64,000 bases of DNA, from assembly GCA_963700285.1 (NCBI GenBank), contig CAVOXA010000010.1:640001-704000 (forward strand), given 5' to 3'. Origin of the DNA: an uncultured Chloroflexia bacterium. GTDB taxonomy: Bacteria; Chloroflexota; Anaerolineae; JAAYZQ01. The notes under the pieces were generated by a model, which was given only the letters and a program-made list of their open reading frames with translations, did not search any database and was not told the origin of the DNA. How positions within the stretch are numbered: the first letter of the stretch is position 1; the number at the start of each line of letters is the position of its first letter. Shown here one piece after another: positions 12,484-26,359 of this stretch. A program made the position numbers and the translations under genes.

Positions 12484-14354
12484 ATCGAGTAGGGGGCGGC
12501 GGCTAACCGCCCCCTCTCACACCACCGGACATGCGGGTCCGCATCCGGCGGTTCGTCAAGCTTGACGCAGTTGCCGGTATCGCTGCCCAATGCCCTCCAG
12601 CCCCAACTTCTGCCAGTAGGCATTACTCATAGCTTCCTTCACCACCGGTGTTCTGGACATCCGCCACGGACTCGTTCCCACTGCGCCCAGGGCTGCTCGC
12701 TCTCGCGGTACTCCCAAAGCCACTAGCGCTCGGTAGCGGGTCCGTCCCCGTTTCCATCGTTTCCAGACCATCTGCCTCAGCCTGCGTCTTATCCAACTGT
12801 CAAGGCCGTCAAAGACGCTGGGTGTATCTGCCAGTCGAAAGTATCCGATCCAGCCTCGTACATACTGGTTCACTTCTCGGATTACTTCCTCCAGTTTCCC
12901 CGAGCGGGTTCGTCGCGTCAGCCGCCGTAGCCTCCAACGAAAGCGTTGCAGCGATTTGGTTGCGACTCGGATTCGCACTTCTCCCCGGTACTTGTAGAAA
13001 CTAAACCCCAGGAACTTGACCTTACTCGCCCGGTCCACCTTGCTCTTCTGGCGATTCACCTTCAGCTTCAGCTTCTTTTCCAGAAACTGGACCACACTGC
13101 CCATCACTCGCTCACCTGCCCGCCGCGTTTTCACATAGATGTTGCAGTCGTCGGCATACCGCACAAACTTGTGCCCTCGCTTCTCCAGTTCCTTGTCCAG
13201 GTCGTCGAGCATGATGTTCGACAGCAGCGGTGACAGTGGCCCGCCTTGCGGCGTCCCTTCTTCCGTTTCCATCACTACCCCGTTGACCATCACCCCCGAT
13301 TCCAGGTAGGCCCGGATCAGCTTCAGCACTCGTTTGTCTTTCACCACACGCGCCACTCGGGCCATCAGCATATCGTGGTTCACCCGGTCGAAGAACTTTT
13401 CCAGGTCGATATCCACCACCCAGTCGTACCCTTCTTGCACGTACCCCTGGGCCTGCTTCATGGCACCGTGCGCACTCCGCCCTGGTCGAAACCCATAGCT
13501 GTGTGGAGAAAAGTGCGGCTCAAACAGCGGTGTCAGAACTTGGGCTATGGCTTGTTGGATGAAGCGGTCCACCACCGTCGGTATCCCAAGCTGCCGCTCC
13601 CCGCCATCCGGTTTCGGTATCCCTACCCGGCGCACGGGGCTCGGCCGATACCGCCCTCCGTCCAGAGCTTCCCGTATCTCAAGCCAGTGGTTGATGAGGT
13701 ACGGTCGCAGCTCTTCCACCGTCATCCCATCTACCCACGGCGCGCCCCGGTTGCTCTCGACTCGTTGCAGAGCTCGTAGCAAATTCTGTCTTTCCCAGAC
13801 CTGCTCCCACAACCCTACGCCTGCGTTGGATTGCCCTTCGTCTCGTGCCGGAGATTGCTCGACCCTCTGGTCAGTCCCCAGCGGCTTCACCCCCTTCCCC
13901 TGTCCAGTAGTACCCCTATCCGGGGCAGTCTGTCTTCTGGGCTCATCTCGCGAACTGCTCAAAGGTCCTCCTACTTGACGTTCAGCCCTTCCCAGCCAAT
14001 GCAGCTGGTACTATGGCCTCTGCTGACTCCTGCCGCCTCAGCCTGGCCTCTCGACCAGGGTTACCATCTGCATGGCTTGACGGCAGGTCTCCCCAGGTAA
14101 GAACGTTGACTTTCCCTGCACACTTGCCCCATTTACTGCTTTGGCCTTTGATTGCATCGGGCTTCGTTGTCTCTTGCCAACTCGCCCGGCCGCACAGCCT
14201 CCTATGTGGTTCGTGTTCCTCAAGTCGCAGGTTTGCCTCCGGCTTCCTTCAGACCCCGCCTCGACGGCGACGCCCTTGCCCTTGGCTAACGGTTGGTGCA
14301 ATCAACCTCCGTAAGGGACTTTCACCCTCTAGTCAACGCCCATGCTGGGCGCAC
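12484..14354 (-). mobile_element. Group IIC intron, apparently full length
   Basis: 5' GTGCGCCCAGCATGGGCG at 14354, directly after a terminator T-tract; domain V GAACCGCCGGATGCGGACCCGCATGTCCGGTGGTGTGAG; domain VI ending CCCTACTCGAT at 12484. Confidence 0.93.
12556..13962 (-). CDS. ltrA: Group II intron reverse transcriptase/maturase without an endonuclease domain
   Basis: RQLGIPTVVDR, SYGFRPGR, DIDLEKFFD, GTPQGGPLSPLLSNI, RYADD, FLGF, GWIGYF. Confidence 0.95.
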   Translation of the reverse strand: MSSSRDEPRRQTAPDRGTTGQGKGVKPLGTDQRVEQSPARDEGQSNAGVGLWEQVWERQNLLRALQRVESNRGAPWVDGMTVEELRPYLINHWLEIREALDGGRYRPSPVRRVGIPKPDGGERQLGIPTVVDRFIQQAIAQVLTPLFEPHFSPHSYGFRPGRSAHGAMKQAQGYVQEGYDWVVDIDLEKFFDRVNHDMLMARVARVVKDKRVLKLIRAYLESGVMVNGVVMETEEGTPQGGPLSPLLSNIMLDDLDKELEKRGHKFVRYADDCNIYVKTRRAGERVMGSVVQFLEKKLKLKVNRQKSKVDRASKVKFLGFSFYKYRGEVRIRVATKSLQRFRWRLRRLTRRTRSGKLEEVIREVNQYVRGWIGYFRLADTPSVFDGLDSWIRRRLRQMVWKRWKRGRTRYRALVALGVPRERAALGAVGTSPWRMSRTPVVKEAMSNAYWQKLGLEGIGQRYRQLRQA

Positions 14355-14660: not shown

Positions 14661-14728
14661 GTACTCACCACAGCGGGCTTTCGAAGCTGAACTGAAGCCC
14701 ACTATCAACCCCAGGGTTTTCGCCCGAG

Positions 14729-15010
14729 TCCCCTGGTCAGCCCACCGGGGCCGCCCTTTTCCGCCAGGCGCAAGCGGGATGCCGAGACAGTCTGGTGCGA
14801 CTCATGGCAGCGCACGAGGGTTTAGTCCACGCCGTCGTGCGGAAGCAGGTCTTGGGCGACCTGCCGTTTGCCGAGGCCTTGCAGGCGGGTCGCCTTGGCT
14901 TGTAGCACGCCATCCTGGGCTTTGATCCCGAGCAGAGAACAGCCTTTTCCACCTACACCTGGACCCCCATTATGCACCACGTCTGGCGAGAGGTCAAGCT
15001 TGCCGAGCCA
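14729..15010 (+). pseudogene. Sigma70 region-2 family relic
   Basis: LFRQAQAGCRDSLVRLMAAHEGLVHAVVR...ALQAGRLGL*HAILGFDPEQRTAFSTY with an in-frame TAG at 14903-14905; no region 4 seen. Confidence 0.65.
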
Positions 15011-15981
15011 GCGTGTGACGTTTACGGTGTTTGCCAGGAGACATGGCAGGTATGGATCAGGCCGTAAATTCGACCTAGCACATTCGGCGACACACAGACG
15101 CCGAGTCTCACGCCCACGGCAATGTCGGAGAGCGGGTGGGTGGCGGCCGGCCTGCAGGTACGCATCACCTTCGACGAGGGGTCGGGCGCCGCCGTCCACA
15201 ACACCTTGGGCGTAGGCACCGTGCTGGCCTTGGGCATCGGAGAACCTAACAACTGATCTGGGAGAGGATCTTCGGCTCTGAAGATGACACCGAATCCAGG
15301 GGATTGATCGAATCAGACCTAGACGGATTCGGGCAGAGACCTGGCCGAACCGGAAGGCAAGATGGCAACTGGGTGGATACGGTCAGCCGAGAGCCGCAAA
15401 AGCACCTTGGAGCGGTTGGGGTTCAAGCGAATGCTGGTGCACGGGCTACCTCCTGGCCACGTGACCAGCCTGCAGGGTGGCTTTGGCTAACCACAACACC
15501 CTGGTCCGGCTCATCCGCGAGGCGACCGCTTTCAGGTAGCCTCGACGGCTTGAGCCGTTCTACCGCTCCCCTCTCAGTCTTGTTTCTGCGTGGGGGATTG
15601 CCCCCTGCCACCAGCCTCCACTTCTGCTTCTTATCCGGCATGTATGAGGCTTGGGACACGGGTCTCCCGATCTTGGCTGCTTGGGCACCCCCGTTCTTGC
15701 CCGATCCACTGTGCAACTGCGGCCCCCACATTCGCCCGCACACTCCTGCCACCCAGACCCCTGTGCCGCTTACCCCAATATCTGGGCCAGCAGCCGGGAG
15801 CTACCCCGCATATTGTGCCCGTGGCCCCTCAACCCGCTGCGAAAGCCCCCTAGAAACAGAGTTTGTCAAGACTCCTGTCTTGGGGTATACTGTTCCGGCG
15901 CTTGCAGTCCGCTCCGCGCGGGGTTTTGCGCGCACCGCATGGATGCTCAAGCGTTCGTACTTGACAGTGAGGAGTTACTGG

Positions 15982-16668
15982 TTGAAGACTGCCATCATCA
16001 TCCCGGCCCGAAACGAAGAGATACCTCTACCAAACGTCATTGCTGAAATTCCATCGGACGTGGCCGATTTGGTGGTTGTCGTGGACAACGGCTCCACCGA
16101 TCGCACGGCCGAGGTCGCGCAGCAGGCTGGAGCCATCGTGGTCTGCGAACCACAGGCGGGCTACGGTTATGCCTGTGCGGCTGGCGTGCGGGCCTCTGGC
16201 GAACGTGGTGCTGAGGTATTTGTCTTTCTCGATGCGGACGGTAGCTTTGATCCCGCCCAGATCTCCGACCTGCTGGCTCCTATCAAGACCGCGCAGGCCG
16301 GCCTGGTGCTGGGCTCGCGACCGGCGGGCGGGATGGAGCCCGGGGCCATGCCACCGCACGCTCGCTTTGGCAACTGGCTTGTAGCGCAGCTGATGCGGCT
16401 GCTCTACGGTCTGCGTGTCACCGACCTGGGACCGTTCCGCGCCATCAGGGCTGGCTTGCTTGCCCAATTGGATATGCAAGAGATGACCTACGGCTGGCCC
16501 ACCGAAATGATGGTCAAAGCTGCCCGGCAGGGCGTACGCGTCGTCGAGGTGCCGGTACGCTACAGGGTGCGGCGTGGCGGGCGCTCCAAGGTCAGCGGGA
16601 CGGTCCGTGGTACGATTCTGGCCACCTATTTCATCCTGTCAGTGACACTGCGGTACGCTTTTCGCTAG
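15982..16668 (+). CDS. GT2 glycosyltransferase (polyprenol-phosphate sugar synthase-like)
   Basis: IIIPARNEE, VVDNGSTD, FLDADGS, DLGPFRAIR, TYGWPTEM; start reassigned to TTG 15982 after GAGGAG. Confidence 0.88.
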   Translation: MKTAIIIPARNEEIPLPNVIAEIPSDVADLVVVVDNGSTDRTAEVAQQAGAIVVCEPQAGYGYACAAGVRASGERGAEVFVFLDADGSFDPAQISDLLAPIKTAQAGLVLGSRPAGGMEPGAMPPHARFGNWLVAQLMRLLYGLRVTDLGPFRAIRAGLLAQLDMQEMTYGWPTEMMVKAARQGVRVVEVPVRYRVRRGGRSKVSGTVRGTILATYFILSVTLRYAFR

Positions 16669-16688
16669 AGGGGAAATCTTGAGGTTTG

Positions 16689-17675
16689 ATGTCGCTGCCT
16701 TTGCCCAACGAACTGTACATCGAGGTAACCAATCGCTGCAACTCATTGTGCGAGACCTGCGTTCGCACCTTTATGACACGGGAACCGCTCCGCGATTTGA
16801 CATGGGACGAGTTTCGCACCCTGGTGGACCAGGTACCTGCCCTGGAGCGAACGGTGCTCCACGGCATAGGTGAGCCGTTGCTCAACCGTTACCTTGTGGA
16901 CATGGTCGCCTACCTGAAAAACCGTACAAATCCGCCTCAGGTGCTCTTTAATTCCAACTCCATCCGCCTCACTCCAGAGCTTCAGGCATCACTAATAGAC
17001 GTCGGGTTGGACGAATACCGGATCTCCACGGACGCCGCCCACAGGGCGCTATACGCCCATATTCGCGGGGTAGACGGGTTTGACCAGATGACGGAGAACG
17101 TCCAGAGCTTTGCCCAGCGGATCCGGAAGATGGGACATGGACCGCGGCTGTCCCTGTGGTTCACCGCTATCTATGAGAACGTCGGCGATCTGCCCGACCT
17201 GGTACGTCTAGCTCATCGCCTCGGGGTGAGCGAAGTCTATGTCCAGAGAATGGTTTATTACGATGAGGGCATGGCGCGCCCGCAGCAATCCGTTTTCCGG
17301 ACACTAGAGGCCACGGAGAAGGAGCTTCTCGAGGAGGCCGAGGCGTTGGCCGAAGAACTGAACATCAGTTTCCGCGCTTCGGGAGCCACCTCCCCCCGGC
17401 AAAGCCTGCTGTCGTCCGACGGCGACAAGAGGCCGTGGTCCCAATGTCGCCGTCCCACGTCGCTGATGTACATCTCGGCGAATGGCAACGTCCTACCCTG
17501 TTGCCTGTCGCCCTACACGACCCGCGACTATCCGGGGCTGATCCTGGGCAATGCCTTCGAGGCATCTTTGGCCGAAATCTGGAATAGTGCAGCCTATCAG
17601 CGATTCCGAACCGCGCTACAAAGCGATACACCGTGGGAGTCATGCGACCGGTGTGGCGTGTTTTGGAGTCTGTAG
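16689..17675 (+). CDS. Radical SAM protein with a SPASM/twitch domain
   Basis: CNSLCETC, LHGIGEPLL; C-terminal CRRP...GNVLPCC...CDRC. Confidence 0.9.
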   Translation: MSLPLPNELYIEVTNRCNSLCETCVRTFMTREPLRDLTWDEFRTLVDQVPALERTVLHGIGEPLLNRYLVDMVAYLKNRTNPPQVLFNSNSIRLTPELQASLIDVGLDEYRISTDAAHRALYAHIRGVDGFDQMTENVQSFAQRIRKMGHGPRLSLWFTAIYENVGDLPDLVRLAHRLGVSEVYVQRMVYYDEGMARPQQSVFRTLEATEKELLEEAEALAEELNISFRASGATSPRQSLLSSDGDKRPWSQCRRPTSLMYISANGNVLPCCLSPYTTRDYPGLILGNAFEASLAEIWNSAAYQRFRTALQSDTPWESCDRCGVFWSL

Positions 17676-17777
17676 AGAGGTCTAGCCTTTGTGCGATCTG
17701 CGATGAATAGGTTTGGCCCCACCTGGGAGTCAACCCATACCCACCGGTCAATCTACCGGAAGAAAGGGAGGAAAGCG

Positions 17778-20432
17778 ATGAATGCCAAGGCACTGCATCT
17801 GTTCGGGATAGTCATAAGCCTGTTGGCTGCCGCATTACTGATCGCCTCTTGCGGTTCCGCACCCGAGCCCGCAACTCCGTCAACTGCTGCCGAGCCTACT
17901 CAATCACCGGCCGAGCCCACAGAACTACAGAAACCTACAGAGGCACCAGAACCTACCGCCGCCCAAGCAACCCAGACGCAGGAGGGAGAGGTTCTGTTCC
18001 CGCCAGAAACGCCATCGGCCGTGCGTGGCAAGGCGGTTTTCACGGCCGATTGCGCCGCGTGCCATGGCGCTGCGGGCGATGGTTCCGGGCTAGCGGGCGC
18101 GGCCAACTTCACCGACCTGGAATTCATGCGCAACGCAAAGCCCGCCGAGTTCTTTGCGGCCATCCGCGACGGCGTCGAAGGTACTGCCATGCCCGCCTGG
18201 GGTGCGACGCTGAGCAAAATGGATATCTGGGACGTGCTCTACTACGAACGGACCTTCGCCACCTCGCCGGAGAACGTGGCCCAGGGGAAGGCATTGTTCA
18301 CCGCCAACTGCACAACCTGTCACGGCGCTGCGGGCGACGGCTCAGCATTGAAGGGTGCCGCTGACTTTACCGATCAGGAGTTCATGAGCAACGAGGATCC
18401 AGCCGAGTTCTTTGAGGCCGTCACCAACGGCGTCGAAGGTTCGGCCATGCCTGCCTGGGGCGCGAGCTTTGACGAGGACCAAATCTGGTCCCTGATCGAC
18501 TACCTCTCGACCTTTGCCTACGAATACCCAGAGGGAGCAGCAGCGGCACCAGAGCCAACACCAGAACTAACCGGAGTCGAGCCCACAGCAGCGCCCGAGA
18601 CGGGTGACGCCACGCCATCGGGGATGCCTTCGGCGGTGCGGGGCAAAGCGGTCTTTACAGCCAACTGCATCGCCTGCCACGGCGAAGCGGGTGATGGCTC
18701 GGCCCTGGACGGTGCGGCCGATTTTACTGACTTGGAGTTCATACGCGGCAAGAAGCCAGCCGAGTTCTTTAAATCCATCCGCGATGGTGTTGAGGGCTCG
18801 GCCATGCCAGCCTGGGGAGAGACCCTGAGCGAGGCGGAGATTTGGGATGTGCTCTACTACGAGAGGACCTTTGCCACGTCGCCGGAGGAGGTCGCGCAGG
18901 GTCAAGAACTATTTGCCGCCAATTGCGTGACGTGCCACGGCCAGGCAGGCGACGGCTCTGGGTTGGCGGGCGCAGCCAACTTTACCGACCGTGAGTTCAT
19001 GGACAACAAGGATCCTGCCCAGTTTTTTGAGGCCATCACGGCTGGCATCAATGGTTCAGCCATGCCTTCCTGGGGCGACATCCTGGATGAAGATCAGATC
19101 TGGGCTCTAGTCAACTACCTCTGGACCTTTGCCTACGAGTACCCGGGAGCTGTTGAGGCAGAACCCGCACCAGAGATCGAATTGCCGCAGGAACCTGATC
19201 CGGCCGTGGGAGCGCAGGTGTGGCAACAGAAGCCCTGCATCGGCTGCCACGGCGCGGAAGCGGAGGGCGACATCGGTCCCAAGCTGGCCGGGACGCCGCT
19301 GCAGTTCGACGAGGCATTGTTCCGTGTGCGCGTCGGCAAGGCCCCAATGCCCGCCTTCAGCGAGGCGCAGGTCAGCGACCTGGAATTGCAGCACATCTTT
19401 GCCTGGCTGGAATCCCTGACCCCGCCTACACCCACCCCTGAGCCCACTGATACACCACCACCAGCCTCAAGCGGCCCGACGGCGACGCCCAAACCAGCGC
19501 TGCCGCCATCCGGACACTTGATGGCCTTCTGGGAACACGTCAACTGGGTCAAAGTCCACTCTGACTTTGCCAAGGATGGTACTCCTGACCTCGGCAGTTT
19601 GCAGGACCGGGTACGCCAGGCTAAGGAACGGGCCAACAGCGCCTTGCAAGAAGCCGATCTGGCCATCGCTGACATCCCGAATCGGCAGGCCCAAAACACC
19701 ATCAGGGAAGTCAAAGGATTCATAAACGAGATCCTTGGTCATGCTGACGCTGCCCTAGCAACGCAGGACTTGAACACCGCACGCAGCGAGGCTGGCAAGA
19801 TGGTCGAGATCTCCCGGCTGGACGCCTGGCCCCGGGCCTCGCAAGCGGTCCAGCAAGCTGGGTTTACCGGTTCCGTGCTGGTACGGGTCAAGAACCAAAA
19901 CGGCAGCCCCATCGCCGGTGCCCTTGTCACTGCTCTGACAGCGCTGACGCCGTCTGGCGGCCAGACCGACGCCAATGGCCAGGTACTCATTCCCGATCTG
20001 GCTGCAGTACGGGTGATGCAGGTCAAGGCCTACAAGGATGGCCTAGTATACCACGAGGTGAATGTCACCGTCCCGCAGGGCGGCCGGGCGGTCGCTGACA
20101 TCACGCTGCCCGGCCCACCCGCCGCAGGCCAGACGCCGGTTGTCTCCAATCCTAGCATTAACCCCGCGTCGGGGCCAGGCGATGCCCAGGTCACTTTTCG
20201 TATGACGGGCACTGATCCGCAGGGCCACGCCAACATTGCTGAAGACCAGGTCTTTGCCCTGAATCCTGAGCTGGGTGAGGCTTACATCCTGCGCTCAGCG
20301 GGCGGCGACAACTGGGATGCGACCGTTGATCTACCCAACCTCGAACCCGGGATCCATACCTGGTACTTTTTCATCGTGGACCACCAATGCAACACCAGCA
20401 ACGTCGTGCCACTGACCTACACAGTACAGTGA
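17778..20432 (+). CDS. Pentaheme c-type cytochrome lipoprotein with Pro/Thr linkers and C-terminal beta-sandwich domains
   Basis: Lipobox LIAS-C; CAACH, CTTCH, CIACH, CVTCH and CIGCH, each with a distal MP(A/S)(W/F) Met ligand motif; start ATG 17778 after GGAGG. Confidence 0.9.
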   Translation: MNAKALHLFGIVISLLAAALLIASCGSAPEPATPSTAAEPTQSPAEPTELQKPTEAPEPTAAQATQTQEGEVLFPPETPSAVRGKAVFTADCAACHGAAGDGSGLAGAANFTDLEFMRNAKPAEFFAAIRDGVEGTAMPAWGATLSKMDIWDVLYYERTFATSPENVAQGKALFTANCTTCHGAAGDGSALKGAADFTDQEFMSNEDPAEFFEAVTNGVEGSAMPAWGASFDEDQIWSLIDYLSTFAYEYPEGAAAAPEPTPELTGVEPTAAPETGDATPSGMPSAVRGKAVFTANCIACHGEAGDGSALDGAADFTDLEFIRGKKPAEFFKSIRDGVEGSAMPAWGETLSEAEIWDVLYYERTFATSPEEVAQGQELFAANCVTCHGQAGDGSGLAGAANFTDREFMDNKDPAQFFEAITAGINGSAMPSWGDILDEDQIWALVNYLWTFAYEYPGAVEAEPAPEIELPQEPDPAVGAQVWQQKPCIGCHGAEAEGDIGPKLAGTPLQFDEALFRVRVGKAPMPAFSEAQVSDLELQHIFAWLESLTPPTPTPEPTDTPPPASSGPTATPKPALPPSGHLMAFWEHVNWVKVHSDFAKDGTPDLGSLQDRVRQAKERANSALQEADLAIADIPNRQAQNTIREVKGFINEILGHADAALATQDLNTARSEAGKMVEISRLDAWPRASQAVQQAGFTGSVLVRVKNQNGSPIAGALVTALTALTPSGGQTDANGQVLIPDLAAVRVMQVKAYKDGLVYHEVNVTVPQGGRAVADITLPGPPAAGQTPVVSNPSINPASGPGDAQVTFRMTGTDPQGHANIAEDQVFALNPELGEAYILRSAGGDNWDATVDLPNLEPGIHTWYFFIVDHQCNTSNVVPLTYTVQ
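18012..19146 (+). repeat. Internal duplication of a diheme module (615-nt period)
   Basis: PSAVRGKAVFTA...FAYEYP occurs at ~18012-18531 and ~18627-19146. Confidence 0.85.
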
Positions 20433-21154
20433 GACGCTGGGCGGCGCCCCTGGCACTCTTGGGGCTCGTGCCGCTACTAACCTTGGCGCTGAGGCCGGGG
20501 GCAATGCCTCCGGCCCCGGCCTCTTTGCCCTTGGTCGATCCCGAACTGGGCGTGCCCGTAGGCGAGCCACTCATTTCAACTGCCACAGACGCGAAACTGG
20601 CCATGGACGGCGTCGTCGAGGCAGCTTGGGAACAGACACCAATGCTGTCCGTGCCCTTGCACTATGGATTGCACAGCGACGAACAGGTGGGCGTGCTGGC
20701 ATTGCGGTCGCTGCACGACACCGAGAACGTTTACTTTCTGGCCCGATGGCCCGCCGCTACACACGGCGGCGAGCCTGACGTCTGGCACAACCTCATTACG
20801 GTCCACTGGCGCTTGGTGGACCCAGGCCACGTCTCGGGTGAATCCACGGGGAGCGATGGATTGGCCTGCACGGTGGGCTGCCATACCGCCACTGCCAACG
20901 GGCAGGGCCAGATCGTCGGCATCCGCCCCGAAACGATTCCGCCGGGATTGAGCGAAAACCTGCCTGCTGGCGGCGGCTGGTCGGATGGTGAGTGGCTTGT
21001 GGAATGGAGCCGGCCCAAGGTCAGCGAGAGCCCCTACGACCAGAACCTTAGCGATCCTGAACAATCCTATCGCTTCTTTGTCAAGCTGTTTCTGGGATTG
21101 GAGGGTCAAGCCGACCCCGTGTCCAACGTTCACAGCCTGAGGCTTGGCCAGTGA
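20429..21154 (+). CDS. Exported DOMON/ethylbenzene-dehydrogenase-gamma-like heme-binding protein
   Basis: Signal/TM, MDGVVEAAW, LRSLHDTENVYFLARWP, CTVGCH, GGWSDGEWLVEWSR; GTGA overlap with the cytochrome stop. Confidence 0.65.
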   Translation: MRRWAAPLALLGLVPLLTLALRPGAMPPAPASLPLVDPELGVPVGEPLISTATDAKLAMDGVVEAAWEQTPMLSVPLHYGLHSDEQVGVLALRSLHDTENVYFLARWPAATHGGEPDVWHNLITVHWRLVDPGHVSGESTGSDGLACTVGCHTATANGQGQIVGIRPETIPPGLSENLPAGGGWSDGEWLVEWSRPKVSESPYDQNLSDPEQSYRFFVKLFLGLEGQADPVSNVHSLRLGQ

Positions 21155-23214
21155 AATACCGTGGGCCAACATTAGCGACAAGGATCGCGCGTGATTTTGC
21201 CCCACTGTTGGCGGTGGGCCTGCTGGTAGCAGTTTATGTAGCCACCTTGGGCACCATGTCGCTGCGCCGGCACCAGAACCTCCGGACCAACGCCCTGGAT
21301 CTGGGCTATACGGATCAGGCCGTATGGAATACACTCCACGGCCGGCCTTTCCGCTTCTCCACCTACCTGGACGCCGCTTACTACCTCGATATCCCCATCC
21401 AGGTGTTCCGAGATCCCGGCATGCTCCTGGGTTACCACGTTGAACCGATCCTGGCCGCCATCAGCCTCCTCTACCTGGTCCACGATGGGCCGGAGACATT
21501 GCTGTGTTTGCAGACGGTGATCATCGCCCTGGGGGCAATTCCAGTTTATTTCCTTGCACGTTCCCGCTTCGAAAGACAGAACACGGTGACCAGGGAAGGG
21601 CACGCAACGCGCAACACGCCATACGTCGCACGTTGGATCCCCATCGGCTTTGTCCTCCTCTATCTGCTCTCCCCTCCGCTGCAAGCCACAAACTTGTCGG
21701 ATTTTCACGCCGTGGCGCTGAGTCCGGCCTTTCTACTGGCAGCTTTCTATTTTCTCGAGACCGACCGGCCCTGGGGCTTTGCCATTTTTGCCGTCCTGGC
21801 CACCATGACCAAAGAGGAGGTAGGCATCATCGTCGCTATGATGGGCCTGTGGGCGGCCTTGGTGCGGCGACGATGGGCGTTGGGTCTGGGGATCGCCGCC
21901 TTTGGCGCGGGCTGGTCGCTGCTCGCCTTCCAGGTGATCTTGCCCCATTTCAACGGCCTCGGCAGCTCGGCCTTCCTGGTACGCTATGGCCAGTTTGGCG
22001 ACAGTCCCGCCGGCATCCTTCGCAATATCGTGCAGCAGCCGCACCTTCTCACGGATTGGCTGCGTCGCTCCGACGTTGTGCGGTACCTGCGTGATCTGTG
22101 GCTCAGCAGCGGGGGACTGGCCATCCTATATCCGTTCAGTCTGGTGATGGCCCTGCCCTCCCTGGCGCTTAACCTCTTTTCCCGTTATGCCTGGATGCGC
22201 TCGGGCGGTGGGCATTACTCGGCGGCCATCGTCCCGTTCCTGGTGATCTCGGCGATCTATGGGGTGGCCTGGCTGGCAGGGAAGACTGACAGATGGGCAG
22301 ACGGGCGAACCGGAAAATGGCAGGTACACCAGTTCATTACCATTCTGCTTGTATGTGGGGGACTGGTCGTAGCGTTGAGAAATCAGTATTACAGTGGCAT
22401 CTTGCCGTTGTCGAGGCGATTCGCTCTAGAGCCAGTAAGCGAGCATGCTCGCCGTGCCGGGCCGTTCATTGAACAAGTCAACGCTCTGCCACCCGATACA
22501 CCCATCTCGGCAAGCTCGGGTCTTTACCCCCACGTAGCTCACCGGGAAAAAGCCTATCTATTTCCCACCATCAGCGATGCAGAGTTCATCCTGCTGGATG
22601 TGACCGGCCCATCCAGTCCCGTGGGCGCCGGAGATCAGTACCAGATCGTACGCGAGCTGCTGGATTATGCCGAGTTCGGCGTAGCCGAGAGCGACTATGG
22701 ATTCCTGCTCCTGGAGCGTGGTCTCGACGAATACCGGTTTTCACCTACCTTTTACGCTGCCTTCCTCGCTGGCAGTAGATCACCGCAGAACCCGGTTGGT
22801 GCGGATTTTGGTGGGCTGTTGCGGTTGGAGGGCTTTGATTGGGACGTGCGCCCCGTGGTCCGCCCCGAGCAAGTCGTAGAGATTGCGACCTATTGGCAGG
22901 CACTGTCCCCCCTGGACAACGACTATCGCCTGGTCTTCTTTTTCTGGGACAAGGATGGCCGCCTGGTACGAATTCAGCCGGAGGAACAGGTGGTACACTG
23001 GTATCCCACCTGGCTGTGGGAGCCTGACCAGGTGACTAAGGTGACACTGCCCCCGCTGCCTGTGGGCGATCTGGCCCGTATGGGGGTAGCGGTACTGGGT
23101 CCAGGCATCGAAAACTCGGACATCGAGGGCCGCATTGTGCCCATAACCCGGGCAGGGGAGCAAGACCTGGTACTCTGGGAACAAGACACAATTCTGGAGC
23201 TAACGAGACCTTAA
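21151..23214 (+). CDS. DUF2079-type polytopic membrane protein (probable GT-C glycosyltransferase)
   Basis: ALDLGYTDQAVWN, LGYHVEPI, DFHAVAL, TKEE, HYSA; many TM helices. Confidence 0.8.
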   Translation: MKYRGPTLATRIARDFAPLLAVGLLVAVYVATLGTMSLRRHQNLRTNALDLGYTDQAVWNTLHGRPFRFSTYLDAAYYLDIPIQVFRDPGMLLGYHVEPILAAISLLYLVHDGPETLLCLQTVIIALGAIPVYFLARSRFERQNTVTREGHATRNTPYVARWIPIGFVLLYLLSPPLQATNLSDFHAVALSPAFLLAAFYFLETDRPWGFAIFAVLATMTKEEVGIIVAMMGLWAALVRRRWALGLGIAAFGAGWSLLAFQVILPHFNGLGSSAFLVRYGQFGDSPAGILRNIVQQPHLLTDWLRRSDVVRYLRDLWLSSGGLAILYPFSLVMALPSLALNLFSRYAWMRSGGGHYSAAIVPFLVISAIYGVAWLAGKTDRWADGRTGKWQVHQFITILLVCGGLVVALRNQYYSGILPLSRRFALEPVSEHARRAGPFIEQVNALPPDTPISASSGLYPHVAHREKAYLFPTISDAEFILLDVTGPSSPVGAGDQYQIVRELLDYAEFGVAESDYGFLLLERGLDEYRFSPTFYAAFLAGSRSPQNPVGADFGGLLRLEGFDWDVRPVVRPEQVVEIATYWQALSPLDNDYRLVFFFWDKDGRLVRIQPEEQVVHWYPTWLWEPDQVTKVTLPPLPVGDLARMGVAVLGPGIENSDIEGRIVPITRAGEQDLVLWEQDTILELTRP

Positions 23215-23876
23215 TGGACAACGTACTCATCATGGTCGCCAAGGAGCCGGTTCCTGGCCTAACCAAGACGCGCCTTTGCCCTCCTTTTACTCCAGTAGGC
23301 GCAGCCGGGTTATACTGCTGTTTGTTGCTGGACACGCTGGCACTGATGTCGCGGGTGGAGGTGGCTGATCATACCATAGCGTACACACCCGACAAGGCCC
23401 AACCCTATTTCGAGAAACTTGCACCCAACGGCTTCAGGCTGGTACCACAGCAGGGTGCCGACCTGGGGGAGCGATTGGCCAATGCTCTGCGCTACCATTT
23501 TGAGCTGGGTTTCCAGCGCGTCGTCATCATGAACAGCGATGGCCCCACGCTGCCCCTGGCCTGCCTGGAAGAGGCATTCTCGGAGCTCGATCGCGCCGAC
23601 ATTACCTTGGGGCCGAGCCATGACGGTGGCTATTATCTCATCGGCATGAAGCGTCTTTATCCGGAGCTATTCCAAGGGATCGCATGGAGCACAGAGCGCG
23701 TGATTCCTCAGACGCTGGCAGCATGTCACCGGCTCGGGCTAACGGTGCACCAACTGCCCGAGTGGTATGATGTCGACACAGAGGCCGATCTGAAACGATT
23801 GCGCCATGATCTGGCCTGCGATCCGGCGTTGGCACCCAGCACCGGGGCCTTTCTGAGCCACAAACAGCCGGACTGA
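23214..23876 (+). CDS. DUF2064/TIGR04282-type GT-A/CofC-like transferase
   Basis: AKEPVPGLTKTRL, QQGADLGERL, SDGPTL, LGPSHDGGYYLIG, WYDVDT. Confidence 0.88.
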   Translation: MDNVLIMVAKEPVPGLTKTRLCPPFTPVGAAGLYCCLLLDTLALMSRVEVADHTIAYTPDKAQPYFEKLAPNGFRLVPQQGADLGERLANALRYHFELGFQRVVIMNSDGPTLPLACLEEAFSELDRADITLGPSHDGGYYLIGMKRLYPELFQGIAWSTERVIPQTLAACHRLGLTVHQLPEWYDVDTEADLKRLRHDLACDPALAPSTGAFLSHKQPD

Positions 23877-24419
23877 CTATTTGCCCAGGCGGCGAGCAGC
23901 CAGCAGCAACCCGATGACGCTCATACTGTCCATGATCTCACCCTCCAGGGCCATACGCAACGACTTGTCGAAGGGAAAAATCCGGCGCTCCAGAAATTCG
24001 GTCTCGTCGGGCAGTGCTTGGGCAGGTGCCAGATCCTCGCCAATGTAGAGGTGGGCCGTCTCGTCGCAAATGCACTTGGAGGTATAGTAGCTGCTGATGG
24101 GGATCAGCCGCCCGGCATGATAGCCAGCCTCCTCGGCCAACTCCCGCTGGGCTGCTTGGTCCAGCGTCTCTCCCTGGTGCACGCCGCCGGTTGGGATCTC
24201 CCAGCGGTGGTTCTCGCCCTGGACATAGCGGTACTGGCGCACTAGCAGCACGTGGCTGTCATCGACAAAGGGTACCACTCCCACGCAATTGCCAAAGGTA
24301 ACCACACCGTAGACAGTCGTCCGGCCATCGGGCATCTCGGCTACATCCTCGCGCAGGCGCATCCAGGCATTCTCATAGACGAGCAGGCTGGATTGTGTTT
24401 TCCATGGTTTCGGCTTCAT
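23877..24419 (-). CDS. NUDIX hydrolase (ADP-sugar pyrophosphatase-like)
   Basis: Nudix box GGVHQGETLDQAAQRELAEEAG; LVRQYRY; start uncertain (24419-24437). Confidence 0.88.
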   Translation of the reverse strand: MKPKPWKTQSSLLVYENAWMRLREDVAEMPDGRTTVYGVVTFGNCVGVVPFVDDSHVLLVRQYRYVQGENHRWEIPTGGVHQGETLDQAAQRELAEEAGYHAGRLIPISSYYTSKCICDETAHLYIGEDLAPAQALPDETEFLERRIFPFDKSLRMALEGEIMDSMSVIGLLLAARRLGK

Positions 24420-24426
24420 GGGCATC

Positions 24427-25431
24427 TCACGGCACAATAATCGTCGTACAGACGTTGCCCCCCCGGGGAAGGTCTTTCTCAGGCGCCACGTTGAAGGCCA
24501 GATCTATCCTGTCACCACGCACCAACGGACAGTAGATGTCGGGCTGGTTGAGGTCGCCCAGTAAAGCGCGGCGGCTGGCGCATCCCCCGCCACAGCTCGC
24601 CACGTGGGGGCACTCTCTACAAGCATCGGGCACCAGTCGGGCTCGCTGGAACTGTTCGCTCTCCAAGATGCGCTCGGCGGTCAACCCAGACAGATCCTCC
24701 AGGGTCAGGTCAGGCTGGGGCCAGTAGACGCAGGGGGTGATGTAGCGCTGGGGAGTGATACGGATGCTGTGCCGGCCACAGGGCGATCCCGTGAGGCTGT
24801 CGAGTCCCAGCATGGCATTGACGATCGGCTCACTTGTGCTAAGCAACTGTCCAGAGTCCAACAACCGCCGGAACGCCTCCCAAAACTGGCCGTAGCTGAG
24901 CATGTACTCGTTCTGTCCCACCGGCTGGTAGACGTTGACTCTGAAATTCGTCCCCAGATCGCGGGCCACGGCGACCAGCCTGTCCATCTCTTGATAGTTA
25001 GTGTTCATCAGCGTCGCCAGAATCGTCACCTCGATGCCGTAAGCGTGGCAGCGATCAATGGCATCAACAACACAGGTCCAATTGCCCTCGCCCCTAAAGG
25101 CATCCTGAGCTTGTGGTGTGGCGAAATCTACCGACAGCTCCACGTCGTGAAACTGGCGCAACAGCGATGGCGGCATTTCGTTCAGGCTGTAACCGTTGCT
25201 GGCCATGCTCACCTTGATGCCCCGCTCGCTCAGGTACTCGACGATCTGGGGAAACTGGGGGTGCAGCAGGCTCTCGCCGGTTCCCATGTTGAAGGATGCC
25301 GCCTCTAGCGTATCGCTGATGGCGCGGATCTCGTCCAAGCTGAGCTGGTAAATGCGGTCCTGAGGACGGTAACAGTGGGCACAACTCAAGTTGCAGTCGT
25401 TGGTTATGCCAATACCGATCGACACTTGCAC
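24427..25431 (-). CDS. Radical SAM protein with a SPASM domain
   Basis: CNLSCAHC; C-terminal PCG...TPCVY...CRECPHVASCGGGC...YC; start reassigned to GTG 25431 after AAGGAG. Confidence 0.88.
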   Translation of the reverse strand: MQVSIGIGITNDCNLSCAHCYRPQDRIYQLSLDEIRAISDTLEAASFNMGTGESLLHPQFPQIVEYLSERGIKVSMASNGYSLNEMPPSLLRQFHDVELSVDFATPQAQDAFRGEGNWTCVVDAIDRCHAYGIEVTILATLMNTNYQEMDRLVAVARDLGTNFRVNVYQPVGQNEYMLSYGQFWEAFRRLLDSGQLLSTSEPIVNAMLGLDSLTGSPCGRHSIRITPQRYITPCVYWPQPDLTLEDLSGLTAERILESEQFQRARLVPDACRECPHVASCGGGCASRRALLGDLNQPDIYCPLVRGDRIDLAFNVAPEKDLPRGGNVCTTIIVP

Positions 25432-25516
25432 AATAGGCTCCTTCCTAAACTGAATCTCGTTCAGTCCAAACCTCGGACATTTTTCCAGTTGCTTTGGCTG
25501 TTTGCGCCCCAGCCAC

Positions 25517-26359
25517 TCAGTCAAATTCAGTACATGAATCAACCCGCGAAAACCTCTTGGGTCTGTGGGCAACCATTTGAATGTACCGGGCCAATTCGTT
25601 GTATGGAGGGCGAGCGGCCACGGCTTTTTCCAAATGGAGCAAGGCGTCAAAGAAATCTGGGTCATCCAGGCGCTCGCGAGGTACATAGTCAGCAAAGACG
25701 CGAACCCCGTAGAGCCCCGTCACGTTCAGTCCCATCTCGCAAAGCCAGGCGCCTACTTTTTCAGCGGTATAGGCCACGCCAGGAATGTCGAACAGGGTGG
25801 CACAAAAGCAACCCTTCTCAAGGGTTGCCAGGGCCGCGTATGGATCCAAGCTCGACCAAACCTGGCGCAGTACCTCGGCGTGCTGATTGACAAAGGACAC
25901 CGACAGCACCCCGCCATCGCGCAACAGCCCGACCAGCGCCCCGAGGCTGGCGCGAGGATCGGGGAGAAACTCTATCAGAGTATGACAGGTGATGACATCG
26001 AAGAATTGGGGAGCGAATGATTCCGCCGTCTGGTCTGCAGACAGGTGGCAGTATGTGATCCGCGCCCGGACATCGCCAGGCAGCTCCTGAGCTGCCTGGC
26101 GTGCCCGGTCAAGCATGGCCGGCGCATAGTCCGACAACCAGACAGAGTATCCATGCAACGCCAGACGCAGAGCCAGTTCACCTGAGCCACCGCCCACATC
26201 TAATGCACGGGGCCGAAGGCCCGGGTCCATAGCATCGAGCAGGCTTGGAGCCAGGTTATGCCAGGTCACCTCCCTGCGGATGCGGCCCAGTGGTCTTTGG
26301 TTGTACTCTGCCCATGCCTCAGCGCCCACGTCGAAGCGCGTTCTTGAATCAACGTTCAT
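25517..26359 (-). CDS. Class I SAM-dependent methyltransferase (SmtA/CmoM-like)
   Basis: ALDVGGGSG, FDVITCH, GVRVFADY, LARYIQMV. Confidence 0.85.
   Translation of the reverse strand: MNVDSRTRFDVGAEAWAEYNQRPLGRIRREVTWHNLAPSLLDAMDPGLRPRALDVGGGSGELALRLALHGYSVWLSDYAPAMLDRARQAAQELPGDVRARITYCHLSADQTAESFAPQFFDVITCHTLIEFLPDPRASLGALVGLLRDGGVLSVSFVNQHAEVLRQVWSSLDPYAALATLEKGCFCATLFDIPGVAYTAEKVGAWLCEMGLNVTGLYGVRVFADYVPRERLDDPDFFDALLHLEKAVAARPPYNELARYIQMVAHRPKRFSRVDSCTEFD

What the first reader, a model, noticed from the sequence alone, without database searches (positions are those of the whole stretch)
15982..26359. Uncharacterised glycosylation plus double radical SAM cluster wrapped around a multiheme surface cytochrome
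Seen: the plus-strand run GT2, SPASM rSAM, pentaheme lipoprotein, DOMON-like heme protein, DUF2079 and DUF2064, with the last four joined by overlapping stop/start codons. It abuts with no gap (23876/23877) a convergent run of methyltransferase, SPASM rSAM and NUDIX. Established: GT2 + GT-C pairs build and transfer polyprenol-linked sugars; DUF2064/TIGR04282 proteins co-occur with radical SAM enzymes and are GT-A/CofC-like. Inference: the locus makes a radically modified nucleotide-sugar (or similar group) and transfers it outside the membrane, possibly onto the Pro/Thr-rich linkers of the co-encoded cytochrome or onto a redox-active glycolipid.
Basis: partly seen in the sequence, partly recalled or inferred. 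Interest (0 to 1): 0.7.

Follow-up and report, generated by a model that had tools for sequence, protein, structure and literature searches.

The report
Radical-SAM sugar-capping cluster with cytochrome
Nine real genes, conserved as a set across several bacterial phyla, likely build an unusual sulfur- or selenium-bearing sugar on a lipid carrier and likely attach it outside the cell, as the tuberculosis methylthioxylose cap pathway does, while the co-encoded surface cytochrome pair is likely a redox partner of that sugar rather than its target.

Summary
The nine genes, their overlaps and the zero-gap junction are real. The set is a conserved pathway: a DPM-synthase-like GT2, a CofC-like TIGR04282 protein, a GT-C transferase (DUF2079 folds like STT3/ArnT), a BtrN-like twitch radical SAM enzyme, a second radical SAM enzyme, a methyltransferase and an ADP-ribose-type NUDIX. 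The convergent half is a local inversion of a normally co-directional operon. The cytochrome's C-terminal domain occurs only beside this cluster (8 of 8 genomes). The radical SAM enzymes are not AhbC/AhbD, and ArsS is absent.

The core matches actinobacterial GT2-DUF2064-GT-C clusters of the methylthioxylose (MTX) type, but three slots are swapped. The twitch enzyme stands where the NAD epimerase stands. rSAM2 alternates with an Rv1681-like enzyme ending in Sec/Cys-Gly. The cytochrome-DOMON-DUF2079 cassette alternates with DoxX-GT87.

Best reading (about 0.5): a lipid-linked, chalcogen-bearing pentose cap with a haem-c redox arm. Glycosylation of the cytochrome's Pro/Thr linkers is poorly supported. 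No product or activity was measured. Verdict: new variant of a known kind.

The parts
15982..16668 (+). GT2, polyprenyl-phosphate glycosyltransferase type; same clade as the GT2 of actinobacterial MTA-phosphorylase/epimerase clusters
   Evidence: PF00535; only PDB hit is DPM synthase 5mlz; tree
16689..17675 (+). rSAM1, twitch-type radical SAM enzyme, BtrN-like, with an extra invariant Cys272; predicted sugar dehydrogenase or epimerase
17778..20432 (+). Penta-haem c lipoprotein. Conserved core: last haem domain + four-helix bundle + transthyretin-like domain + Ig-like domain
20429..21154 (+). Exported EB_dh/DOMON-like protein with invariant CX3CH; predicted c-type haem
   Evidence: PF09459 44 bits; alignment; NXR-C 7b04 hit; N-terminal hydrophobic segment
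21151..23214 (+). DUF2079 membrane protein, GT-C fold, invariant Asp50 in the first external loop
23214..23876 (+). DUF2064/TIGR04282, CofC-like; predicted nucleotidyltransferase for a sugar-1-phosphate
   Evidence: (TIGR04282 201 bits; TIGR03552 CofC 42 bits)
23877..24425 (-). NUDIX hydrolase, ADP-ribose-pyrophosphatase-like, cluster-specific subfamily
   Evidence: fused to DUF2064 in L218
24427..25431 (-). rSAM2, radical SAM/SPASM enzyme of an unnamed family with an invariant C-terminal Cys328 (CTT)
25517..26359 (-). Class I SAM methyltransferase, weakly CmoM-like, not ArsM; travels with rSAM2

Best explanation
The cluster likely makes a sulfur- or selenium-substituted pentose, likely loads it on a polyprenyl phosphate and likely transfers it to an envelope acceptor outside the membrane, as a radical-SAM variant of the methylthioxylose (MTX) capping route, with the cytochrome and DOMON-haem pair likely serving as its extracytoplasmic redox arm. 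Proposed order, all inferred: (1) rSAM2 with the methyltransferase supplies a 5'-substituted, methylated adenosine-derived pentose, or methylthioadenosine comes from general metabolism. (2) DUF2064 activates the pentose-1-phosphate as an NDP-sugar, and the NUDIX edits or recycles it. (3) The twitch enzyme rSAM1 epimerises or oxidises a ring carbon in place of the NAD-dependent epimerase. (4) GT2 makes the polyprenyl-P-sugar. (5) DUF2079 transfers it to an unknown glycan, lipid or protein. (6) The haem-c pair moves electrons to or from the cap, for example to re-reduce an oxidised thio/seleno-ether. Shown here: gene content, folds, motifs and co-occurrence. Not shown: any substrate, product, acceptor or electron flow.
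For: Relay anatomy: GT2 resembles DPM synthase; the DUF2079 model (pLDDT 93, pTM 0.92) matches GT-C folds, led by STT3, PglB, ArnT and DPY19, among the 28 hits at E<=0.001; DUF2064 is CofC-like. Kinship: among 72,556 plasmid records, 10 of the 16 GT2 hits at E<=1e-15 rank above the archaeal and Bacillus ones, and the 9 of these 10 that were opened all lie next to DUF2064. The window GT2 and 7 actinobacterial ones share a branch apart from 7 own-genome paralogues (SH-aLRT 98; inner branch 96; quick tree). Those 7 actinobacterial loci hold an NAD epimerase (6 of 7), MTA phosphorylase (3 of 7), a Mo enzyme (6 of 7) and rSAM1 in 0 of 7, whereas 0 of 80 rSAM1 loci hold the epimerase or the phosphorylase. 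rSAM1's best PDB match is BtrN, with four cluster Cys aligned and one extra invariant Cys. Chalcogen hint: rSAM2 alternates with an Rv1681-like rSAM3 (both 2, alone 30 and 30, neither 18, of 80 loci). rSAM3 ends TGA-Gly/Ala-stop in 39 and Cys-Gly-stop in 3 of 42 distinct C-termini, with a conserved downstream hairpin, beside TusA, DsrE and YedF-like genes. rSAM2 has its own C-terminal Cys in 49 of 49 aligned rows (redundant rows included). Redox slot: cytochrome goes with DUF2079 (9 of 12, the other 3 contig-limited; 0 with GT87), DoxX goes with GT87 (34 of 42), and cytochrome and DoxX meet in 1 of 80; 25 of 34 long loci hold one of these partners.
Against: No biochemistry. The M. tuberculosis gene sequences could not be compared, and the primary MTX paper was not held. 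9 of 34 long loci show no redox partner. The Sec evidence concerns rSAM3, which is not in the window (it lies about 535 kb away); no window gene has an in-frame Sec. The window lacks TusA/DsrE and any MTA phosphorylase, and the genome's own phosphorylase gene is frameshifted in the assembly. The genome has generic NAD epimerases elsewhere, so the rSAM1/epimerase exchange holds only at locus level, and it is confounded with taxonomy. In Methylobacterium rSAM1 sits beside an aminotransferase, which fits a keto/amino sugar as well. No catalytic Mo or thiol subunit accompanies the cytochrome here. Loci were picked by rSAM1 similarity and are not independent.
Confidence: 0.5

Rival explanations
1. 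Same lipid-linked relay, but the sugar carries no S/Se: rSAM1 oxidises a ring hydroxyl to give a keto, amino or epimerised sugar, and the cytochrome pair is a co-regulated passenger or a sugar-sensing module.
For: BtrN is the best structural relative; an aminotransferase adjoins rSAM1 in L217; minimal loci hold only GT2, DUF2064, rSAM1 and DUF2079 (L086, L089, L104, L117); the DOMON profile also weakly hits a CBM9 xylanase domain (E 0.014).
Against: Does not explain the Sec/Cys-terminated rSAM3, the sulfur carriers, or why three unrelated redox modules fill one slot.
Confidence: 0.2
2. One reading: DUF2079 glycosylates the co-encoded cytochrome or DOMON protein (Pro/Thr linkers or a sequon) with the modified sugar.
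For: Cytochrome-DOMON-DUF2079 is a tightly linked cassette (DOMON in 52 of 54 and DUF2079 in 31 of 36 metagenome loci with room); top fold hits are protein glycosyltransferases; an N-T-S sequon near the C-terminus occurs in 30 of 36 rows.
Against: P/T linkers are common here (29 of 157) and vary between orthologues; 32 other GT-Cs are encoded; 7 of 16 DUF2079 loci lack the cytochrome; DUF2079 has no WWDxG motif (sequence); the divergent clade has Phe in place of the Asn.
Confidence: 0.13
3. An arsenosugar-like route: rSAM2 acts like ArsS on a methyl-arsenic species and the relay exports an arseno-ribose.
For: TIGR04282 is named for arsenosugar clusters; an ArsM-like methyltransferase (133 bits, cut-off 263) accompanies rSAM3 in some loci; ArsS is also a Cys/Sec-bearing rSAM (model name).
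Against: No ArsS in the genome (best 47 bits, cut-off 300; rSAM2 30 bits); the window MT scores 24 bits on an ArsM model and GT2 42 of 182 on TIGR04283.
Confidence: 0.13
4. The radical SAM enzymes are haem-synthesis or cytochrome-maturation enzymes (AhbC/AhbD/NirJ) serving the cytochrome.
For: They neighbour haem proteins and score weakly on those models.
Against: Scores 41-56 bits against cut-offs 500-650, while the real pair lies at C1:423878-427162 with 464 and 634 bits; 68 of 80 rSAM1 loci show no cytochrome domain.
Confidence: 0.02

Closest known systems
Methylthioxylose (MTX) capping pathway of M. tuberculosis lipoarabinomannan (MtxS Rv0539, MtxT Rv0541c) and the matching actinobacterial GT2-DUF2064-MT-GT-C-MTAP-epimerase-Mo clusters
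   Same: Polyprenyl-P-sugar synthase plus GT-C logic (PMC8780516 figure legend; PMC12088412 passage). Same GT2 clade and adjacent DUF2064 as the actinobacterial clusters seen. That Rv0535, Rv0536 and Rv0540 are the MTAP, epimerase and DUF2064 is recalled, not read.
   Different: No MTAP or NAD epimerase; two radical SAM enzymes and a NUDIX instead; DUF2079 instead of a GT87-type GT-C; c-type cytochrome pair instead of a Mo enzyme; no lipoarabinomannan host.
Arsenosugar cassette (ArsM, ArsS TIGR04167, TIGR04282, TIGR04283)
   Same: TIGR04282 member over cut-off; methyltransferase plus radical SAM pairing.
   Different: ArsS, ArsM and TIGR04283 not met.
Twitch radical SAM dehydrogenases/epimerases (BtrN, NeoN, HygY)
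   Same: Four auxiliary-cluster Cys align with BtrN. NeoN uses a Cys as H donor and HygY becomes a dehydrogenase on losing one Cys (PMC10991966 passage and a reference title in it).
   Different: Local profile match only (68 bits); substrate unknown; whether Cys272 is the H donor is untested.
M. tuberculosis Rv1679-Rv1681 (FadE16, SBP-like, radical SAM)
   Same: Relatives of all three occupy the rSAM2 slot in other genomes (286-395 bits).
   Different: Below the family cut-offs; absent from the window; function unknown.
Type II DMSO-reductase gamma subunits (EB_dh, NXR-C 7b04)
   Same: DOMON-like haem-binding domain.
   Different: CX3CH motif points to covalent haem c; no Mo catalytic subunit nearby.

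Membership tests
MTX-type capping cluster | Polyprenyl-P GT2 of the clade found in MTAP/epimerase clusters | tested here: met
   (quick tree, SH-aLRT only)
MTX-type capping cluster | Direct orthology to MtxS (Rv0539) and MtxT (Rv0541c) | not tested
   No call supplied those sequences
MTX-type capping cluster | Adjacent DUF2064/TIGR04282 | tested here: met
   201 bits, cut-off 134
MTX-type capping cluster | GT87-type GT-C in the cluster | tested here: not met
   Window has DUF2079; a GT87-like gene lies at the satellite locus
MTX-type capping cluster | MTA phosphorylase and NAD epimerase in the cluster | tested here: not met
   None among the window genes; 0 of 80 rSAM1 loci
MTX-type capping cluster | Product is 5-methylthio-xylofuranose | not testable with these tools
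   Needs chemistry
GT-C superfamily (DUF2079) | GT-C membrane fold with an acidic residue in external loop 1 | tested here: met
   (invariant D50)
Oligosaccharyltransferase STT3/PglB | WWDxG motif (recalled) | tested here: not met
   Absent from the sequence
Arsenosugar cassette | ArsS (TIGR04167) | tested here: not met
   Best 47 bits in the genome, cut-off 300; genome 89% complete
Arsenosugar cassette | ArsM and TIGR04283 | tested here: not met
   24 bits on an ArsM model; 42 of 182 bits on TIGR04283
AhbC/AhbD | TIGR04546/TIGR04545 score | tested here: not met
   41-56 bits; true pair elsewhere
GeoRSP / MftC | TIGR04303 / TIGR03962 score for rSAM2 | tested here: not met
   109 of 400 and 94 of 265 bits
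Twitch radical SAM (BtrN-like) | CX3CX2C plus four-Cys single auxiliary cluster | tested here: met
   five Cys kept in 81 of 82 rows, one truncated
Twitch radical SAM epimerase | Active-site Cys as H donor | tested here: inconclusive
   Extra invariant Cys272 has no BtrN counterpart; not aligned to HygY or NeoN

The most novel reading that the evidence does not exclude
Diverse bacteria decorate their envelope with a radical-SAM-made thio- or seleno-pentose that works as a renewable surface redox cofactor, wired to the cell by interchangeable modules: DoxX, a Mo enzyme with cytochrome b, or, here, a new multi-haem lipoprotein plus a CX3CH DOMON cytochrome. The tuberculosis MTX cap would be one late branch of this system.
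Probability: 0.25. Interest if true: 0.85.

Novelty: new variant of a known kind. Interest (0 to 1): 0.58.

Why it matters
It places several long-orphan families (DUF2064, DUF2079, two unnamed radical SAM families, the Rv1681 family) in one testable pathway and suggests that MTX-like capping reaches far beyond mycobacteria. The slot swaps give direct predictions: rSAM1 as a radical epimerase or dehydrogenase, rSAM2 and Sec-rSAM3 as alternative donors, and the cytochrome pair as a redox partner. A cultured carrier of the rSAM1 core exists (Methylobacterium). Earlier scan notes already flagged the core on other genomes; the cytochrome-DOMON-DUF2079 cassette and the exclusion patterns are what this locus adds.

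Tried and rejected
AhbC/AhbD, ArsS/ArsM, GeoRSP and MftC assignments: rejected on scores. Hidden Sec in window genes: none; rSAM1 and rSAM2 orthologues end on mixed stop codons. Fold searches of the cytochrome core gave only generic four-helix, transthyretin-like and Ig-like matches and no functional clue; PDB sequence searches with its profile and the DUF2079 profile gave nothing significant; the Atlas gave only leads under 0.9 for that domain and unnamed clusters for rSAM2. The profile search of 1.84 billion representatives never ran, so the cytochrome domain's range outside Anaerolineae-like hosts is open. Invariance counts from alignments A6 and A7 were not used for the motifs by which their rows had been picked; A2 and A3 were used instead. 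Folding energies of the 60-nt stretches after the rSAM3 TGA are mostly not below shuffles; the SECIS reading rests on position and compensating stems, with no formal covariation test. Paper searches listed no description of this cluster; subscription papers are not covered. The primary MTX paper, the 2024 MTX paper and the HygY paper were not held; no supplements were read, and those of the MTX papers may bear on the gene roles.
Full report
Observation. The last four plus-strand genes are joined by GTGA, GTGA and TAATG overlaps, and the NUDIX stop abuts the DUF2064 stop at 23876/23877. Pfam and NCBIfam confirm the labels. Only TIGR04282 passes a specific cut-off for a whole protein's identity; the cytochrome passes CcoP through its repeats. 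Relatives are named Anaerolineae, so the host is likely of that class.

One pathway, not a chance cluster. rSAM1 orthologues (47% identity or more) occur in 25 of 301 class genomes (37 at the looser E-value). TIGR04282 passes its cut-off in 30 of 301: in 22 of those 25, with split copies in 2 more, and in 8 genomes without rSAM1. rSAM2 occurs in 11 of 301, all with rSAM1. The cytochrome C-terminal domain occurs in 8 of 301, all within about 8 kb of rSAM1. These counts include the own genome and a same-genus one. In 63 metagenome loci found from the cytochrome side, the DOMON gene follows in 52 of 54 with room and DUF2079 in 31 of 36. In the best 80 of 580 rSAM1 loci from GTDB (Chloroflexota, Methylomirabilota, Acidobacteriota), the 34 long ones hold GT2 27, DUF2064 32, a GT-C 31, NUDIX 17, and rSAM2 or rSAM3 26. 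rSAM1 and rSAM2 are co-directional in 28 of 32 loci; the convergent layout is seen only in close relatives.

Anatomy. GT2's only PDB hit is DPM synthase. The DUF2079 model is confident and matches GT-C folds, with modest TM-scores of 0.3-0.4. DUF2064 is CofC-like, which I read as a nucleotidyltransferase (inference from recalled CofC/MobA motifs). rSAM1 aligns to BtrN's auxiliary-cluster cysteines and has one extra invariant Cys. PMC10991966 (passages seen) states that NeoN uses a Cys as H donor, and cites the HygY title on the same point. rSAM2 keeps seven Cys beyond the SAM motif, the last being C328. The NUDIX resembles ADP-ribose pyrophosphatases. The cytochrome's conserved core is one haem-c domain, a four-helix bundle, a transthyretin-like and an Ig-like domain; extra haems are duplications. 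The DOMON protein has an invariant CX3CH and resembles NXR-C. A complex prediction of the two gave weak support: median 0.45 (runs 0.54, 0.45, 0.00), best of 3 controls 0.00, runs agreeing in at least 1% of contacts, partner pLDDT at least 65. The mark was reached by 116 of 157 solved and 2 of 215 mismatched pairs, but at 0.60 or under by only 18 solved pairs and both mismatches. I give it little weight.

What it is not. The genome's AhbC/AhbD lie on another contig at 634 and 464 bits; the window enzymes score 41-56. ArsS is not found. GeoRSP and MftC cut-offs are missed.

Closest known system. An earlier scan note pointed to the MTX pathway, and I tested what I could. PMC8780516 (figure legend) and PMC12088412 (passages) state that MtxS (Rv0539) makes the lipid-linked MTX donor and MtxT (Rv0541c) transfers it; PMC8081860 (passages) names both enzymes. 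The primary paper was not held. The roles of Rv0535, Rv0536 and Rv0540, and the oxidation of MTX to a sulfoxide that MsrA reverses, are recalled. Actinobacterial plasmid loci show the set GT2, DUF2064, MT, GT-C, MTA phosphorylase, NAD epimerase and Mo enzyme. Their GT2s group with the window GT2 (26 hand-picked rSAM1 loci, 10 plasmid loci, 7 paralogues; quick tree, no bootstrap).

Three slot exchanges. (1) Epimerase versus rSAM1: 6 of 7 actinobacterial loci have the epimerase and none has rSAM1; 0 of 80 rSAM1 loci have the epimerase or the phosphorylase. (2) rSAM2 versus the Rv1681-like rSAM3: together in 2 of 80 loci, alone in 30 each; at genome level 3 of 25 have both and 21 at least one. 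All 21 loci with an MT or MT2 hit over threshold also have rSAM2. rSAM3 ends in TGA-Gly/Ala-stop (39 of 42) or Cys-Gly-stop (3 of 42), with a SECIS-like hairpin. This genome has such a copy at C10:121873-122715 plus SelA, SelB and tRNA-Sec. (3) Cytochrome-DOMON-DUF2079 versus DoxX-GT87, or a Mo enzyme with cytochrome. L070 carries a partial GT87-like ORF beside DUF2079 that fell under the threshold. These samples are related genomes, so the tallies overstate independence.

Mechanism. The lipid-linked relay is well supported (about 0.85). That the sugar is an MTX-like S/Se pentose and that the haem pair is its redox arm is inference (about 0.5 jointly). It is not excluded, given the tight cassette and a sequon in 30 of 36 rows. 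Against my reading: 9 of 34 long loci have no redox partner, the window has no sulfur carrier, no phosphorylase and no catalytic redox subunit, and an aminotransferase beside rSAM1 in Methylobacterium suggests other sugar outcomes.

Verdict. Real, conserved and uncharacterised in the literature searched. It is a new variant of a known kind (MTX/arsenosugar-style lipid-linked capping), with an undescribed cytochrome cassette. Interest 0.58.

Noticed in passing
G000:C10:121012-126648 (L215): Satellite locus in the same genome: DoxX, Rv1681-like radical SAM ending T-TGA-G-stop (likely selenocysteine), DoxX, TusA-like, CesA-like GT2, and a convergent GT87-like gene; the genome has SelA, SelB and tRNA-Sec.
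   Followed up: yes
window 12484-14271 (-): Group II intron with RT/maturase (12556-13962) just upstream of a methionyl-tRNA-synthetase-like gene that is broken into frames (gene label recalled from motifs).
   Followed up: partly
window 14696-15490: Degraded ORF fragments with internal stops, resembling a transposase remnant (label recalled), between the intron and GT2.
   Followed up: no
G000:C22:22368-23125 (-): The genome's MTA-phosphorylase-like gene is split by frameshifts; assembly error or pseudogene not determined.
   Followed up: partly
L031:12086-14812: In the same-genus genome DUF2079 and DUF2064 form one 908-aa ORF and the NUDIX is split; real fusion or indel unknown.
   Followed up: no
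L218:3726-6889: Miltoncostaea plasmid has GT87-GT2 and DUF2064-NUDIX fusions with rSAM1, rSAM3, Rv1679/Rv1680-like genes, DoxX and selD.
   Followed up: partly
L217:4903-11906: Cultured Methylobacterium carries cytochrome b, Mo enzyme, DUF2064, GT87, rSAM1, GT2 and an aminotransferase: a tractable test system.
   Followed up: partly
L117:7100-8131 and L111:3496-4527: A radical SAM + DUF3463 gene (HpnH-like, recalled) lies divergent to minimal GT2-DUF2064-rSAM1-DUF2079 loci, hinting at a hopanoid acceptor there.
   Followed up: no
G000:C1:485346-487841: Second DUF2079 (33% identical) next to other membrane glycosyltransferase-like genes; the genome has 32 PMT_2-type GT-Cs over cut-off.
   Followed up: partly
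L073:10498-18803: Variant with a second tri-haem cytochrome, a rhodanese and a ferric-reductase-like membrane protein inserted in the cassette.
   Followed up: partly
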